This document shows, piece after piece, positions 18,901-21,900 of a stretch of 64,000 nucleotides of DNA (position 1 is its first letter; every line of letters begins with the position of its first letter). A program made the position numbers. This stretch comes from Escherichia coli O127:H6 str. E2348/69 (GTDB lineage: Bacteria > Pseudomonadota > Gammaproteobacteria > Enterobacterales > Enterobacteriaceae): NCBI RefSeq assembly GCF_000026545.1, contig NC_011601.1. One strand, 5' to 3'.

Positions 18901-21900
18901 CGCTGAGTTACAACATGCGTCTGGGGAACGGTATGGAAATTGAACCCTGGCTGAAGGCGGCTGTGCGCAAAGAATTTGTCGATGATAACCGGGTGAAGGT
19001 GAATAGTGACGGTAATTTTGTCAATGATTTGTCGGGCAGACGTGGAATATACCAGGCAGGTATTAAAGCCTCATTCAGCAGTACGTTAAGCGGGCATCTC
19101 GGGGTGGGTATAACCGTGGTGCCGGTGTGGAGTCCCCGTGGAATGCGGTGGCCGGTGTGAACTGGTCGTTCTGACCATCAACGATTAAACTGCGCTTCGG
19201 CGCTGTTTTCGTTTACCGGGTGCTAAAAGGGAAAATTCTGGGGCAAAAAAAGCCCGCCAGTTACGGCGGGAAACCTCATCCTATGGGAGAACAATGAATA
19301 ATGAAATTGCGGGGTTATCATCTCCCAGGATACCCATGCTAACGATAAGGTTATTTACTCAACCAGGCGTAAACATTTTGTTCTGTGCGTGGGAACAGCC
19401 TTAAGGTGTAAAGGGGGAGGGGGAAATAGCAATGAATAGTATCAGCAAGAATACTCGCCGCTTTACCACAACGTGGATGAGAGGGATGAAAAACTCAAGG
19501 CAGAGATGACTCTGCCTTGAAGATAAATGCGCTTTTACAGGGGGCTTATTTCAGCTCTTCTGCTTCCGGTAAGGTCACGTTCAGCTCAAGAATAGAAATA
19601 TCGCCATCTTTTTGCTCAAGCTGTACGGTTACCATCTCAGGATCAATTTGTACATATTTACAAATGACCTCAAGAATATCTTTACGCAACTGCGGCAGAT
19701 AATGCGGTTCTGCATCGCTGCGACGGCGTTCAGCAACAATAATCTGCAACCGTTCTTTTGCAATGTTGGCTGTGTTTTTCTTCCGCGAGAGAAAGAAATC
19801 GAGTAATGCCATAATTTATCCTCCGAACAAGCGTTTGAGGAAGCCTTTCTTCTCTTCTTCAATGAAGCGGAAAGGACGTTCTTCTCCCAACAGACGTTCT
19901 ACGGTATCTGCATAGGCTTTACCCGCATCGGCGTTAATGTCGAGAATGACCGGTTCACCCTGGTTAGAGGCGCGCAATACTGATTGATCCTCTGGGATCA
20001 CGCCGACGAGTTTGATGCGCAGGATCTCCAGCACATCTTCCATGCTCAGCATGTCACCTCTGCTTACGCGGCCTGGGTTATAGCGCGTTAACAGCAGGTG
20101 CTCTTTAATCGGCTCTTCGCCATTTTCTGCGCGGCGTGATTTCGACGCCAGAATGCCTAAAATACGGTCAGAGTCGCGTACTGAGGAGACTTCCGGGTTG
20201 GTGGTAATAATGGCTTCGTCTGCAAAATAGAGTGCCATTAACGCACCGGTTTCAATCCCTGCCGGGGAGTCACAAACGATAAATTCAAAATCCATCGCTT
20301 TCAGATCATCAAGAACTTTGGCGACCCCTTCACGAGTGAGGGCATCTTTATCGCGAGTTTGCGATGCCGGAAGAATATAGAGATTTTCAGTACGTTTATC
20401 TTTAATTAACGCCTGGTTTAGCGTTGCATCGCCCTGAATGACGTTGACGAAATCGTAAACGACCCGGCGTTCACAACCCATAATCAGGTCGAGATTACGC
20501 AGGCCGATATCAAAATCTATCACGACAGTTTTCTTTCCCTTCTGGGCCAAACCAGTGGCGATGGCCGCGCTGGAGGTTGTCTTACCAACACCCCCTTTGC
20601 CCGAAGTAACAACAATAATGCGTGCCATAGAAATTCCTTGTTAAAAAGGGATCAATTTAACGGTTGAACGGTCAAAGCGTTTTCGACTAACTGCAGTCGT
20701 GCCGCTTTGCCATAAAATTCTGCTGGGATTTGATCACTCAGCCAGTATTCACCTGCGATGGACACCAGTTCCGCCATCAGGTTCGTACAAAATATTTGCG
20801 TTTCCCGGTCACCACTTGCCCCTGCCAGCGCACGACCGCGCATCATGCCATAGACATGAATGTTACCATCGGCAATCAATTCGGCCCCAGCGCTAACGTG
20901 GCTTGTAACAATCAGATCACATTGTGGAGCATAAATACGCTGACCGGAACGCACTGGGGTATCAATTAAACGCGTTTTTGTGACCGGCGTTGTATTTTGC
21001 GCTGGAGCCTGCGGTGCGGGGGCTGGACGCGGCGCTTTTTCCTTTCCTTCCGTCAGGATAGGCAGCCCCATCTTTTCAATTTCGGCTTTAAGTTGCGCAT
21101 CTTTGCAGCCACTTACGCCAATAACCCGCAAACCAGTTGCCGAAACCGCCTTATGCATCGCTGACCAGTTTACCGGGTCTTCCAGTGCACTGACGTTGAG
21201 TACAACGGGGGCATGTTTTAAAAATGCGGGGGCCTGAGCGATTTTGTCTTCCAGCGCCTGATGGATAACCTTAGGTTCTGCCTCATGCAGATGAACCACA
21301 GATAAAGTGAAGCTACTGCCTTTAAGCTCGATTGGCGTGTTTGACATCCTGGCCTTACTCAATTAGCTATTAATCATCGCCAGCGCGCGATGATGTTCCG
21401 AAGACTATAAGGCATGTTATAGTCTGGATTATATTGAGGCAAGTCACCCTCCCATTTATTCAGAGTAAAAGTCTATTCTGTGATAAATGGCGCTGATTCA
21501 TAGCTTAAAAAATACCCTTGTCAATCAACCCATTGCCGTCGTACTTTTGATTGTTCTTATTTACGCTTCATTTTTCCGCACCCTAATCGTGACAGCATCT
21601 TCAGACCTGTTTAAATATCCAGTGTTGAGGCGAGTGTATTTTTTCACCACGCCAGGCTTTCTTAACTTTCCATTTTTTGCAGCATCATTAAAGAACAGAT
21701 ACCCGTTATCTTAATATCCGCCACAGAATTGCTCTATCATAGAAACCGCAGAAGACGTCTGATACTTCTGTCAGGTCATCGTAACTCGTCCAGGTCAGCG
21801 GTTTTGATTACGGATTGATGATGAAATGAGCATAAGTGTTGTACGGTTGGATTATCAGGATGTGCTATGAATATGATGCGTATTTTTTATATCGGATTGT

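What the first reader, a model, noticed from the sequence alone, without database searches (positions are those of the whole stretch)
21363..21866. Unusually long intergenic region between minC and ycgJ
About 500 bp of AT-rich sequence upstream of minC carries only a low-complexity 75-codon ORF (21487-21714, +). The spacer probably holds the minCDE promoter region and is a candidate location for a small RNA or small protein.
Basis: seen in the sequence. Interest (0 to 1): 0.15.

Follow-up and report, generated by a model that had tools for sequence, protein, structure and literature searches.

The report
Prophage scar upstream of minC
The long gap between minC and ycgJ in E. coli is the short ancestral minC/ycgL two-way promoter joined to the decayed left end of an old prophage, so it holds a real minC promoter and a stranded promoter that makes a short Rho-silenced RNA, and probably no small-protein gene.

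Summary
The window is E. coli E2348/69. The true minC–ycgJ spacer is 21348–21866 (519 bp, 41% GC).

**Ancestral part.** In 74 of 77 other Enterobacteriaceae loci, minC and ycgL are divergent neighbours only 121–127 bp apart. Only the minC-proximal ~135 bp of the E. coli spacer is conserved.

**Inserted part.** E. coli carries a 1,508-bp insertion exactly at the ycgL start codon.
- It is flanked by the 11-bp repeat AGAGTAAAAGT (21462–21472 and 22970–22980).
- Its left end, inside the spacer, is a decayed tyrosine-integrase 3' fragment (about 21504–21759, minus strand).
- Intact integrases of this family, within ~40-kb predicted prophages, sit at the same junction in other genera.
- ycgJ and pliG have homologues at accessory-gene positions in Salmonella prophages Fels-1 and Gifsy-1.

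**Published K-12 data.**
- minCDE transcription starts map to 21406/21408.
- The "minC promoter" used to study sigma70-dependent pausing fires on the plus strand, away from minC. I read it as the stranded ancestral ycgL promoter.
- Its RNA has 3' ends at 21491/21494, just after a strong hairpin. A Rho-dependent termination signal lies near 21571.

**The 75-codon ORF.** It lies largely antisense to the integrase remnant, has dN/dS of about 1.3, has no Shine-Dalgarno sequence, and is no longer than chance allows.

**Also found.** A covarying hairpin in the minC leader (21373–21394).

Verdict: mostly ordinary, now explained, and modestly interesting.

The parts
21348..21408 (-). minC 5' UTR (59-61 nt), with transcription starts at 21408 and 21406
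   Evidence: SMRT-Cappable-seq lists the minCDE operon start at K-12 1226141/1226139, reverse strand. The offset K-12 = window + 1204733 was verified.
21373..21394 (-). Conserved hairpin in the minC leader (8-bp stem, 6-nt loop, +15 to +36). A reproducible RNA 3' end lies 7 nt after it, at 21366
   Evidence: A hairpin is predicted in all 46 distinct sequences, mean -9.8 kcal/mol. The minC-sense strand is more stable than the antisense strand in 31 of 46, Wilcoxon p=4e-4. Six of 9 pairs show compensatory changes, and 88.7% of cells pair against 77.5% in shuffles, 0/500. An ungapped 14-sequence subset gives 89.7% against 79.5%, 0/500. The Term-seq 3' end at K-12 1226099(-) appears in three conditions, with Rho score 0.38 and intrinsic-terminator score 1.39.
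21416..21442 (-). minC core promoter: -10 TATAAC (21421-21416) and the best -35-like hexamer TTGCCT (21442-21437, 15-nt spacer)
   Evidence: The hexamer lies 8-10 nt upstream of the mapped starts. The block is almost invariant across ten genera. The -35 assignment is my reading of the sequence.
21418..21435 (+). Stranded ancestral ycgL promoter: -10 TATAGT (21418-21423), sigma70 pause element TATATT (21430-21435), start about 21430-21431. It overlaps the minC -10 on the opposite strand, making a bidirectional promoter
   Evidence: The primers of Sun et al. 2021 show that the sense strand is the window plus strand, that TATAGT was mutated as -10R, and that TATATT was mutated as -10LR. In vitro transcription, permanganate footprints and in vivo RNET-seq were reported. 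Both hexamers are invariant in the cross-genus alignment, where ycgL's ATG lies about 43 nt downstream. The exact start coordinate is inferred from the 6-7-nt spacer rule.
21431..21494 (+). Short orphan RNA (about 61-64 nt) ending just after a strong hairpin (21452-21490) that straddles the insertion junction
   Evidence: Term-seq 3' ends at K-12 1226224 (two conditions) and 1226227 (one condition), plus strand. The fold of 21430-21494 gives -19.2 kcal/mol, z=-4.1, with 0 of 200 shuffles as stable.
21462..21472 (.). attL core AGAGTAAAAGT, the left copy of the 11-bp direct repeat that bounds the insertion
   Evidence: The same 11-mer recurs at 22970-22980, immediately before the ycgL ATG. Homology with unoccupied sites in other species breaks just after the core: they read ...AGAGTAAAA(G/T)TATGTTTTGTGTGAT. 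Occupied sites in four lineages share ...AGAGTAAAAGTCTAT.
21504..21759 (-). Decayed 3' fragment of a phage tyrosine-integrase gene (pseudogene remnant with a frameshift and stops)
   Evidence: nhmmer of the non-conserved spacer alone against integrase 3' ends gives E=1.8e-12 (L061), 8e-11 (L019) and 3e-9 (L081), and 2.8e-6 against the Hafnia phage Meifeng integrase. tblastn aligns VVKKYTRLNTGYLNR... to integrase residues 309-342, 15/36 identical, E=0.002, with a collinear frameshifted piece upstream. The alignment is shown.
21487..21714 (+).
   Evidence: It lies largely antisense to the integrase remnant. dN/dS is 1.26 against Escherichia sp. MOD1, with differences 6/5/6 by codon position, compared with minC at 0.03 and ycgJ at 0.44. 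The upstream sequence AAAAGTCTATTCTGTGATAA has no Shine-Dalgarno motif. There is no Pfam hit. Chance expectation is 10-16%.
21571..21571 (+). Most significant position of a Rho-dependent termination signal on the plus strand (coarse resolution)
   Evidence: Adams et al. 2021 list K-12 1226304(+) with Rho score 3.87, p=1.1e-5. Downstream reads rise from 49 to 166 with bicyclomycin, while upstream reads go from 32 to 28. The plus-strand RNA over 21430-21640 is C-rich relative to G, C/G=1.34.
21760..21866 (+). ycgJ-proximal part of the spacer, with no homology found. It presumably holds the ycgJ 5' UTR; one promoter-like site lies just upstream at 21711-21740
   Evidence: The consensus scan found TTAATA-18-TATCAT, no more than chance. 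The segment is 96.3% identical to Escherichia sp. MOD1, against 92.7% for the integrase remnant. No ycgJ transcription start was found in the datasets read.
21867..22739 (.). ycgJ (+, 21867-22235) and pliG (-, 22338-22739), the surviving cargo genes of the insertion
   Evidence: Both are absent next to minC in every non-E. coli locus except Escherichia sp. MOD1. PliG is 79.5% identical to Gifsy-1 STM2610, which lies between Rz and the small terminase subunit. YcgJ is 50.5% identical to Fels-1 STM0906.1n, which lies between antiterminator Q and the holin.
22911..22980 (+). Right arm of the element, with the attR core (22970-22980). It carries the present-day ycgL transcription start (22952)
   Evidence: 22912-23097 is 85% identical to the right junction of the remnant in Citrobacter sp. 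R56. 22911-22944 is 88% identical to sequence about 90-120 nt downstream of the Meifeng integrase gene. The ycgLMN transcription start is at K-12 1227685.

Best explanation
The spacer is a composite of two pieces of DNA.

**Ancestral part (21348 to about 21472).** This is the compact minC/ycgL divergent control region, about 125 bp in other Enterobacteriaceae. It is a bidirectional sigma70 promoter whose two -10 hexamers overlap on opposite strands.
- The minus-strand half starts the minCDE mRNA at 21406/21408. That mRNA has a 59-61-nt leader carrying a conserved hairpin.
- The plus-strand half originally drove ycgL.

**Inserted part.** In the E. coli lineage a temperate phage with a tyrosine integrase integrated at AGAGTAAAAGT, directly in front of the ycgL start codon. 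It then decayed to 1,508 bp. What remains is attL, a ~250-bp integrase 3' fragment, ycgJ, pliG, a short right arm and attR. The spacer beyond 21472 is the left end of that scar.

**Consequences.**
1. The old ycgL promoter survives because it is the mirror half of the minC promoter. It now fires into dead phage DNA, pauses sigma70-dependently, and yields a ~61-64-nt RNA ending at a hairpin that straddles attL. Longer transcripts are stopped by Rho before ycgJ.
2. ycgL is now transcribed from a start inside the element's right arm.
3. The 75-codon ORF is a chance reading frame that lies largely antisense to the integrase remnant.

**Shown:** the empty-site versus occupied-site comparison, the direct repeats, the integrase homology, the transcription starts and 3' ends, and the Rho signal.
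**Inferred:** that ycgJ and pliG arrived as phage cargo, that Rho acts on the orphan transcript specifically, the exact plus-strand start, and that the conserved plus-strand promoter drives ycgL in other species.
For: **Ancestral state.**
- 74 of 77 loci have 121-127 bp between the minC and ycgL ATGs.
- Removing the 1,508 bp between the E. coli repeats leaves 125 bp (coordinates).
- Only window 21348-21482 aligns across genera, at 75-94% identity.

**Insertion bounded by 11-bp repeats.**
- The left copy of the junction reads CTA where the unoccupied site has the ycgL ATG.
- That variant is shared by occupied sites in Trabulsiella, Pseudocitrobacter and Citrobacter sp. R56.

**Integrase remnant.**
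- nhmmer gives E=1.8e-12, 8e-11 and 3e-9 against three loci.
- tblastn gives 15/36 identical residues at the integrase C-terminus.
- Orientation and distance to the junction match those of intact genes.

**Intact elements at the same junction.**
- 349-aa PF00589 integrases lie directly upstream of minC in L061 and L081.
- Three IMG/VR prophage contigs, two of about 40 kb and one of 17.7 kb, carry integrases 82-85% identical to that of L061. The one with enough flank runs into minC.

**Cargo.**
- PliG and YcgJ homologues are found in Gifsy-1 and Fels-1, flanking the lysis cassette.

**Transcription.**
- minCDE starts at 21406/21408 and ycgLMN starts at 22952.
- The plus-strand promoter and its pause were validated by Sun et al. 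2021.
- Plus-strand 3' ends lie at 21491/21494 and the Rho signal near 21571.
- The attL hairpin folds with z=-4.1.
- The promoter geometry fits the bidirectional class, in which divergent starts lie 7-25 bp apart and 23 bp is a common spacing.

**ORF.**
- See, and the lack of any Ribo-RET entry.
Against: - No intact element of this integrase family was found in 5,426 complete E. coli genomes, so excision or integration at this site in E. coli is not demonstrated.
- The far (ycgL-side) ends of the intact prophages were out of reach, so their attR was not seen. Only the short Citrobacter sp. R56 remnant shows both ends.
- The integrase similarity is modest: about 70% at nucleotide level, and 42% over 36 residues.
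- Searching the spacer against the whole phage collection by blastn gave no significant match.
- The predicted reconstituted attP was not found in IMG/VR.
- ycgJ and pliG could have replaced phage DNA later rather than arriving as cargo. The ycgJ upstream 107 bp resembles nothing that was searched.
- The plus-strand start coordinate is inferred, not read from a table.
- The Rho score uses 800-nt windows. It could instead reflect bicyclomycin-induced firing of a ycgJ promoter.
- Term-seq scores on the two strands are evidently on different scales, so abundances cannot be compared.
Confidence: 0.85

Rival explanations
1. The plus-strand transcript is functional. Either the ~61-64-nt hairpin-ended RNA acts as an E. 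coli-specific small RNA, or the ~436-nt stretch from the orphan promoter to ycgJ is a Rho-controlled leader that sets ycgJ expression.
For: - It has its own validated promoter.
- Its 3' ends are reproducible in three growth conditions.
- It contains a very stable hairpin, z=-4.1.
- Bicyclomycin raises downstream plus-strand reads 3.4-fold, from 49 to 166.
- No separate ycgJ transcription start was found in the operon table read.
Against: - The promoter's conservation is explained by its overlap with the minC promoter.
- The 3' part of the RNA is phage-derived junction DNA found only in E. coli.
- It has no U-tailed terminator and no Rfam match.
- SMRT-Cappable-seq lists no long transcript from this start, although that method favours long RNAs.
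- Hfq-binding data could not be read.
Confidence: 0.1
2. The 75-codon ORF (21487-21714, +) encodes a small hydrophobic protein, translated from the orphan transcript.
For: - The frame is open and the same length in E2348/69, K-12 and Escherichia sp. MOD1.
- The predicted product is hydrophobic.
- A plus-strand transcript can reach its start codon.
Against: - There is no Shine-Dalgarno motif.
- dN/dS is 1.26, with substitutions equally spread over codon positions.
- An ORF this long occurs by chance in 10-16% of shuffles.
- There is no Pfam family.
- The main 3' ends of the transcript fall at codons 2-3 of the ORF, and a Rho signal lies inside it.
- No entry appears at these coordinates in the Ribo-RET supplement read.
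- The sequence is largely the reverse complement of an integrase pseudogene.
Confidence: 0.03
3. The whole 519 bp is an extended regulatory region for minCDE, with distal promoters, transcription-factor or nucleoid-protein sites, and its length is selected.
For: The region is moderately AT-rich, and the spacer is nearly invariant within E. coli.
Against: - Other Enterobacteriaceae run minCDE from about 125 bp.
- Nothing beyond 21482 is conserved outside E. coli.
- The only mapped minCDE starts upstream of the gene are at 21406/21408.
- The integrase-remnant part diverges faster (92.7% identity) than its flanks (96-97%).
Confidence: 0.04

Closest known systems
Cryptic or decayed prophages bounded by attL/attR in E. 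coli K-12, such as e14 integrated at icd (from my own knowledge of the field)
   Same: - An integrase gene lies next to one junction.
- A short direct repeat sits at both ends.
- The empty site is precise in relatives.
- The element supplies replacement sequence for the host gene end it interrupts; here that is a new promoter for ycgL.
- Accessory genes are retained after the phage functions are lost.
   Different: - Only 1.5 kb remains and the integrase is a ~250-bp fragment.
- The target is the 5' edge of a protein-coding gene inside a bidirectional promoter region, not a tRNA gene or a gene's 3' end.
- It is not annotated as a prophage in K-12 or E2348/69, and no paper in the library searched mentions it.
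Bidirectional sigma70 promoters with overlapping -10 elements (Warman et al. 2021 preprint; NAR 2026, PMC12825309)
   Same: - Divergent starts lie about 22-25 bp apart.
- The -10 hexamers TATAAC and TATAGT overlap by 4 bp on opposite strands.
- Both directions are active.
   Different: One arm has lost its gene. It is kept only because it is physically the same DNA as the minC promoter.
Sigma70-dependent promoter-proximal pausing of the lambda PR' / lac type, called 'G1d' in Sun et al. 2021 (PMC7876045)
   Same: This exact sequence is one of that paper's model promoters. It has a -10-like TATATT starting 12 bp after the start of the -10, a pause in the 16-20-nt register, and rescue by GreB.
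   Different: The paper labels it the 'minC promoter'. Its primers show that it transcribes away from minC.
Prophage accessory genes ('morons') flanking the lysis cassette of lambdoid prophages: Gifsy-1 STM2610 and Fels-1 STM0906.1n
   Same: PliG is 79.5% identical and YcgJ 50.5% identical to these genes. The convergent ycgJ/pliG orientation matches what would remain of Q - ycgJ-like - lysis genes - pliG-like if the lysis genes were deleted.
   Different: The two homologues come from two different prophages. No lysis, Q or terminase remnant was detected in E. coli, so the common origin is an inference.
Rho-dependent silencing of untranslated or horizontally acquired transcription, with trimming back to a stable hairpin (general knowledge; data from Adams et al. 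2021)
   Same: The plus-strand RNA is untranslated and C-rich relative to G. It shows a bicyclomycin-sensitive signal, and its 3' ends lie 1-4 nt after a stable hairpin.
   Different: Rho dependence of these particular 3' ends was not scored in the published table.

Membership tests
Integrated temperate-phage remnant (tyrosine-integrase att scar) | Precise empty site in related genomes | tested here: met
   74 of 77 loci have 121-127 bp between the minC and ycgL ATGs. Deleting the 1,508 bp between the E. coli repeats restores 125 bp.
Integrated temperate-phage remnant (tyrosine-integrase att scar) | Direct repeat of the crossover core at both ends | tested here: met
   AGAGTAAAAGT occurs at 21462-21472 and 22970-22980, with imperfect similarity extending about 13 bp further.
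Integrated temperate-phage remnant (tyrosine-integrase att scar) | Integrase gene or remnant adjacent to one junction | tested here: met
   nhmmer gives E=1.8e-12 to 3e-9 and tblastn E=0.002. Orientation and spacing match those of intact genes.
Integrated temperate-phage remnant (tyrosine-integrase att scar) | Intact elements of the same family at the same site elsewhere | tested here: met
   L061 and L081 carry intact 349-aa PF00589 integrases. IMG/VR prophage contigs L088/L091 (~40 kb) and L096 (17.7 kb) share the same junction, and L091 runs into minC.
Integrated temperate-phage remnant (tyrosine-integrase att scar) | Both junctions of an intact element seen, or attP reconstituted in a free phage | tested here: not met
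   The far ends lay outside the fetched flanks. The predicted attP string had no exact match in IMG/VR. A search for the ycgL start in viral contigs gave only a chance hit.
Bidirectional sigma70 promoter | Divergent transcription starts 7-25 bp apart around overlapping -10 elements, both active | tested here: met
   The minus-strand starts at 21406/21408 come from published mapping. The plus-strand promoter was validated in vitro and in vivo, and its start near 21430-21431 is inferred. The hexamers overlap at 21416-21423. The class is defined.
Small-protein gene (the 75-codon ORF) | Ribosome-binding site and purifying selection on the reading frame | tested here: not met
   There is no Shine-Dalgarno motif. 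dN/dS is 1.26 and differences fall 6/5/6 by codon position.
Small-protein gene (the 75-codon ORF) | Evidence of translation | tested here: inconclusive
   No entry at K-12 12261xx-12265xx or under ycgJ was found in the Ribo-RET supplement held as text. Raw ribosome-profiling tracks could not be read.
Intergenic trans-acting sRNA | Own promoter and defined 3' end | tested here: met
   The promoter is shown, and Term-seq 3' ends appear in three conditions.
Intergenic trans-acting sRNA | Intrinsic terminator with U-tail, conservation across related species, or membership of a described family | tested here: not met
   No terminator-like site was found. The 3' half is confined to E. coli. No Rfam match reaches threshold.
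Intergenic trans-acting sRNA | Binding to Hfq or ProQ, or identified targets | not testable with these tools
   The RIL-seq supplementary tables are not held.
Cis-acting structured element in the minC 5' leader | Structure supported by covariation on the mRNA-sense strand | tested here: met
   Six of 9 pairs show compensatory changes and the covariation score is 0.377 against 0.193, 0/500 shuffles (on an alignment fitted to the model). An ungapped subset gives 0.366 against 0.194, 0/500. Many G-U pairs occur, and the sense strand is more stable, p=4e-4.
Cis-acting structured element in the minC 5' leader | Canonical intrinsic attenuator (hairpin followed by a U-tract) | tested here: not met
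   The tail is UAAUAGC. The published intrinsic-terminator score is 1.39, below the cut-off of 3.0, and the Rho score is 0.38.

The most novel reading that the evidence does not exclude
Two functional RNAs may sit in a stretch treated as plain promoter DNA.

1. The conserved hairpin in the minC leader, with its reproducible 3' end 19 nt before the start codon, could be a non-canonical attenuator or processing site. It would set how much full-length minCDE mRNA is made, and so the Min protein dosage.
2. The stranded ycgL promoter, with its attL hairpin and Rho termination, could have been co-opted as a Rho-gated switch for the phage-derived ycgJ gene, or as an E. coli-specific small RNA.
Probability: 0.15. 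Interest if true: 0.5.

Novelty: new member of a known kind. Interest (0 to 1): 0.3.

Why it matters
- It explains an odd feature of one of the best-studied cell-division loci. The gap is not extra minC regulation. It is the scar of a prophage that landed on the ycgL start codon, and it apparently brought ycgJ and the lysozyme inhibitor pliG into the E. coli core genome.
- It corrects a label. The "minC promoter" used as a model for sigma70-dependent pausing transcribes away from minC, and I read it as an orphaned ycgL promoter.
- It is a clean natural example of a bidirectional promoter keeping its useless half alive, with Rho cleaning up the output.
- It flags a conserved, covarying hairpin in the minC leader that may affect Min protein dosage.
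- It suggests that the K-12 ycgL start codon is annotated 11 codons too early.

Tried and rejected
- **Rfam.** A scan of 20000-23500 at E<=10 gave only sub-threshold noise.
- **Promoter/terminator scan.** It gave one promoter-like site, no more than chance, and no terminator.
- **Cappable-seq supplement (Ettwiller 2016).** The stored file was cut before 1.2 Mb and uses old coordinates.
- **Thomason 2015 dRNA-seq.** The paper is not held.
- **Sun 2021 supplements.** They hold no genome coordinates for this site.
- **Ribo-RET supplement.** No entry at these coordinates.
- **RIL-seq supplements.** Not held.
- **Literature searches.** Searches for minC+ycgJ and for ycgL/minC with integrase or prophage terms gave nothing relevant. 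The "minC" hits were the words "minced" and "--mincov".
- **RNAalifold on the plain MAFFT alignment of the minC leader.** It predicted no structure because the hairpin arms shift register between genera. This was resolved by per-sequence folding and a covariance-model alignment.
- **Hafnia phage Meifeng.** It has a 65% identical integrase but does not carry the AGAGTAAAAGT core.
- **blastn against all phages.** The spacer and the right arm gave no match.
- **Reconstituted attP in IMG/VR.** No match.
- **Search for the ycgL start in viral contigs.** It hit only a portal-protein gene by chance.
- **Integrase gene against 5,426 E. coli genomes.** It found only the conserved catalytic motif of unrelated integrases.
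- **Palindrome GACTATAAGGCATGTTATAGTC (21403-21424).** I considered it as a hairpin and rejected it. Its left arm is not conserved in other genera, and the conserved right half is the pair of overlapping -10 elements.

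
Full report
**Identity and observation.** The 601 bases around the finding are 100% identical to E. 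coli E2348/69. They are found at >=95% identity in all but a handful of the 5420 (of 5426) complete E. coli genomes that match. RefSeq annotation gives minE, minD and minC on the minus strand, then ycgJ (+), pliG (-), ycgL, ycgM and ycgN. minC starts at the ATG at 21345-21347.

The spacer is therefore 21348-21866, 519 bp, not 21363-21866. Nothing is annotated in it in either strain. GC content is 41%. The 75-codon ORF at 21487-21714 exists, but an ORF that long turns up in 10-16% of dinucleotide-preserving shuffles. Rfam finds nothing.

**Why the spacer is long.** I fetched 80 Enterobacteriaceae loci around minC. Only the minC-proximal ~135 nt (21348-21482) align outside E. coli, at 75-94% identity. 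ycgJ and pliG are absent next to minC everywhere except in Escherichia sp. MOD1. In 74 of 77 loci ycgL sits divergently, with 121-127 bp between the two ATGs.

The alignment shows where E. coli departs.
- Unoccupied sites read ...ATTCAGAGTAAAA(G/T)T ATG TTT TGT GTG AT..., which is the ycgL start MFCVIY.
- E. coli reads ...ATTCAGAGTAAAAGT CTATTCTGTGATAAATGG... and then has unrelated sequence.
- The live ycgL start in E. coli is ...CTTAAAGAGTAAAAGT ATGTTTTGTGTGAT... at 22970-22994.

The 11-mer AGAGTAAAAGT is thus duplicated, at 21462-21472 and 22970-22980. The two copies are 1,508 bp apart, and removing that interval restores a 125-bp intergenic region.

**What the insertion is.** In Trabulsiella guamensis (L061) and Pseudocitrobacter faecalis (L081), an intact 349-aa tyrosine integrase lies immediately upstream of minC. 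It matches PF00589 at E=5e-28. It is preceded by an excisionase-like helix-turn-helix gene and by DNA methylase genes, and it is transcribed toward the same junction. Citrobacter sp. R56 (L019) has a 905-bp remnant with integrase fragments and both junctions.

The E. coli spacer beyond the conserved part is homologous to the integrase 3' end.
- nhmmer with 21486-21866 alone gives E=1.8e-12 (L061), 8e-11 (L019) and 3e-9 (L081), covering window ~21504-21759.
- It gives E=2.8e-6 against the integrase of Hafnia phage Meifeng.
- At protein level the minus strand reads VVKKYTRLNTGYLNRSEDAVTIRVRKNEA*, against MVKKYAHLSAEHLNRFVGSVTFLAQENE (15/36 identical, E=0.002). A frameshifted collinear piece lies upstream (alignment).

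All four occupied lineages share the junction variant AGAGTAAAAGTCTAT.

IMG/VR holds prophage contigs with integrases 82-85% identical to that of L061, two of about 40 kb and one of 17.7 kb. In them the same junction lies about 50 nt after the integrase stop, and the one with enough flank continues into minC.

The right arm of the E. coli insert has two matches.
- 22912-23097 is 85% identical to the Citrobacter sp. R56 right junction.
- 22911-22944 is 88% identical to sequence about 90-120 nt downstream of the Meifeng integrase gene. This was a targeted comparison and is not significant database-wide.

PliG is 79.5% identical to Gifsy-1 STM2610, which lies between Rz and the small terminase subunit. 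YcgJ is 50.5% identical to Fels-1 STM0906.1n, which lies between antiterminator Q and the holin.

I conclude that the 1,508 bp are the remains of a temperate phage that integrated at the ycgL start, and that the spacer's distal 380 bp are its integrase end. That ycgJ and pliG were its cargo is an inference.

No intact relative exists in complete E. coli genomes. I could not see the far junction of an intact element or a free attP.

**What is transcribed.** K-12 coordinates convert as window + 1204733.

*minC and ycgL mRNAs.* SMRT-Cappable-seq lists minCDE starts at 1226139/1226141, which is 21406/21408. That gives a 59-61-nt leader behind a -10 TATAAC at 21421-21416. It lists the ycgLMN start at 1227685, which is 22952, inside the element's right arm. 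No ycgJ or pliG unit is listed.

*The plus-strand promoter.* Sun et al. 2021 used a "minC promoter" as a model for distal sigma70-dependent pausing. Their primers show the following.
- The template spans 21352-21491.
- The biotinylated non-template primer lies at the minC end.
- TATAGT (21418-21423) was mutated to TATGGT or TATAAT as the -10.
- TATATT (21430-21435) was mutated to TATATA or TATAAT as the -10-like element.

These changes only make sense on the plus strand. The promoter therefore fires away from minC, starting at about 21430-21431. This start is inferred from their 6-7-bp spacer rule.

Both hexamers are invariant across genera, where the ycgL ATG follows about 43 nt later. I read this as the ancestral ycgL promoter. 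Its -10 overlaps the minC -10 by 4 bp on the opposite strand, and the two starts lie 22-25 bp apart. That is the geometry of bidirectional promoters, and it explains why the orphaned half is preserved.

*Fate of the plus-strand RNA.* Term-seq (Adams et al. 2021) reports plus-strand 3' ends at 1226224 and 1226227, which is 21491 and 21494, across three conditions. It also reports a Rho termination region whose most significant position is 1226304, which is 21571. The Rho score there is 3.87 (p=1e-5): downstream reads rise from 49 to 166 with bicyclomycin, while upstream reads go from 32 to 28.

The RNA from 21430 to 21494 folds into a strong hairpin at 21452-21490 that straddles attL (-19.2 kcal/mol, z=-4.1, 0 of 200 shuffles). 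The 3' ends lie 1-4 nt after it. The plus-strand RNA is C-rich relative to G.

The most economical reading is a stranded promoter whose untranslated product is terminated by Rho and trimmed back to the hairpin.

**The ORF.** Against Escherichia sp. MOD1, which is 94.6% identical over the spacer, the ORF has 17 differences spread 6/5/6 over codon positions and dN/dS of 1.26. For comparison, minC gives 0.03 and ycgJ gives 0.44.

There is no Shine-Dalgarno sequence and no Pfam match. The transcript's main 3' ends fall within the ORF's first three codons. The ORF lies largely antisense to the integrase remnant. The Ribo-RET supplement I could read has no entry there. I regard it as a chance frame.

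**A conserved element inside the coordinates.** The minC leader contains a hairpin at 21373-21394.
- Every one of 46 distinct enterobacterial sequences folds into it, with very different stem sequences. The minC-sense strand is the more stable one (31 of 46, p=4e-4), as expected from G-U pairs.
- An ungapped 14-sequence alignment gives 89.7% pairing against 79.5% in shuffles (0/500).
- A model-fitted alignment of 61 distinct sequences gives 6 of 9 pairs with compensatory changes and a covariation score of 0.377 against 0.193 (0/500). That alignment leans toward the structure.
- Term-seq shows a 3' end at 1226099(-), which is 21366. It lies 7 nt after the stem and 19 nt before the ATG, in all three conditions. 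Its Rho score is 0.38 and its intrinsic-terminator score is 1.39.

Whether this is attenuation, processing or a stable decay product is open.

**Comparison with known things and verdict.** Each component belongs to a known kind:
- a decayed prophage with att repeats;
- a bidirectional promoter;
- a lambda PR'-type sigma70 pause, already published for this exact sequence;
- Rho clean-up of untranslated RNA.

What I did not find in the annotation or in the searchable literature is the following:
- recognition that this spacer is a prophage scar;
- that the published "minC promoter" is the orphaned ycgL promoter;
- that ycgL now uses a phage-arm promoter.

Its interpretation is partly right: the minC promoter is there and an independent transcript exists. 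It is partly wrong: there is no credible small protein, and the cause of the length was missed. Interest is modest.

Noticed in passing
window 22948-22983 (K-12 1227681-1227716): K-12 annotates ycgL as 108 aa starting at the ATG at 22948. The mapped ycgLMN transcription start is at 22952, downstream of that ATG. Other genera and PGAP start the protein at MFCVIY (22981). The K-12 start therefore looks 11 codons too early; the extra codons are phage-arm sequence.
   Followed up: partly
window 21363-21377, minus strand: The 3' arm of the minC leader hairpin contains an AUG that opens a 4-codon mini-ORF (M-I-N-S, stop UAA at 21365-21363). The Term-seq 3' end at 21366 is the last base before that stop codon. 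In Citrobacter the same AUG is in frame with minC ([15 protein letters not shown]...). In Enterobacter and Klebsiella there is no AUG, so the mini-ORF is not conserved.
   Followed up: partly
window 21348-21367, minus strand: The 20 nt up to and including the minC ATG (AAUUGAGUAAGGCCAGGAUG) are almost invariant across 46 distinct enterobacterial sequences. That is more than a Shine-Dalgarno sequence needs, and it might be a binding site for a regulator or small RNA.
   Followed up: no
window 20913-20914, minus strand (K-12 1225646/1225647): SMRT-Cappable-seq lists a 'novel' transcription start inside minC that gives a minD-minE transcript. This is an internal promoter that could uncouple MinDE from MinC dosage.
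   Followed up: no
L049 (Intestinirhabdus alba) 2772-2976: About 205 bp are inserted in the minC leader between the conserved promoter/hairpin block and the Shine-Dalgarno region. This is a different insertion at the same locus, and its nature was not examined.
   Followed up: no
L084 (Gifsy-1) 2498-2899; L085 (Fels-1) 2459-2821: Salmonella prophages carry close homologues of the g-type lysozyme inhibitor PliG (Gifsy-1 STM2610, annotated hypothetical) and of YcgJ (Fels-1 STM0906.1n). Both lie beside the lysis cassette. A phage-borne lysozyme inhibitor next to the phage's own endolysin genes is curious.
   Followed up: partly
window 24750-25031 region; L002 6451-6601: hlyE is truncated in E2348/69: RefSeq marks it as a partial pseudogene missing its N-terminus. 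It is intact (912 bp) in K-12.
   Followed up: no
L003 (Escherichia sp. MOD1-EC7003) 1984-2112: This close relative keeps the spacer and ycgJ but has lost most of pliG; only residues 88-125 align. The island is therefore still eroding.
   Followed up: no
window 21300-21900 as query: Twelve of the 5441 matching places lie on records labelled as plasmids, and one K-12 lab strain (NZ_CM170063.1) has the spacer split into two places. These may be assembly artefacts or an insertion; they were not examined.
   Followed up: no
window 22311-22332: The hairpin GACGGGGAGAGTCCCCGTC lies between the convergent ycgJ and pliG. A plus-strand Term-seq 3' end maps at K-12 1227065 (window 22332), consistent with a shared bidirectional terminator and with some ycgJ transcription in K-12.
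   Followed up: no
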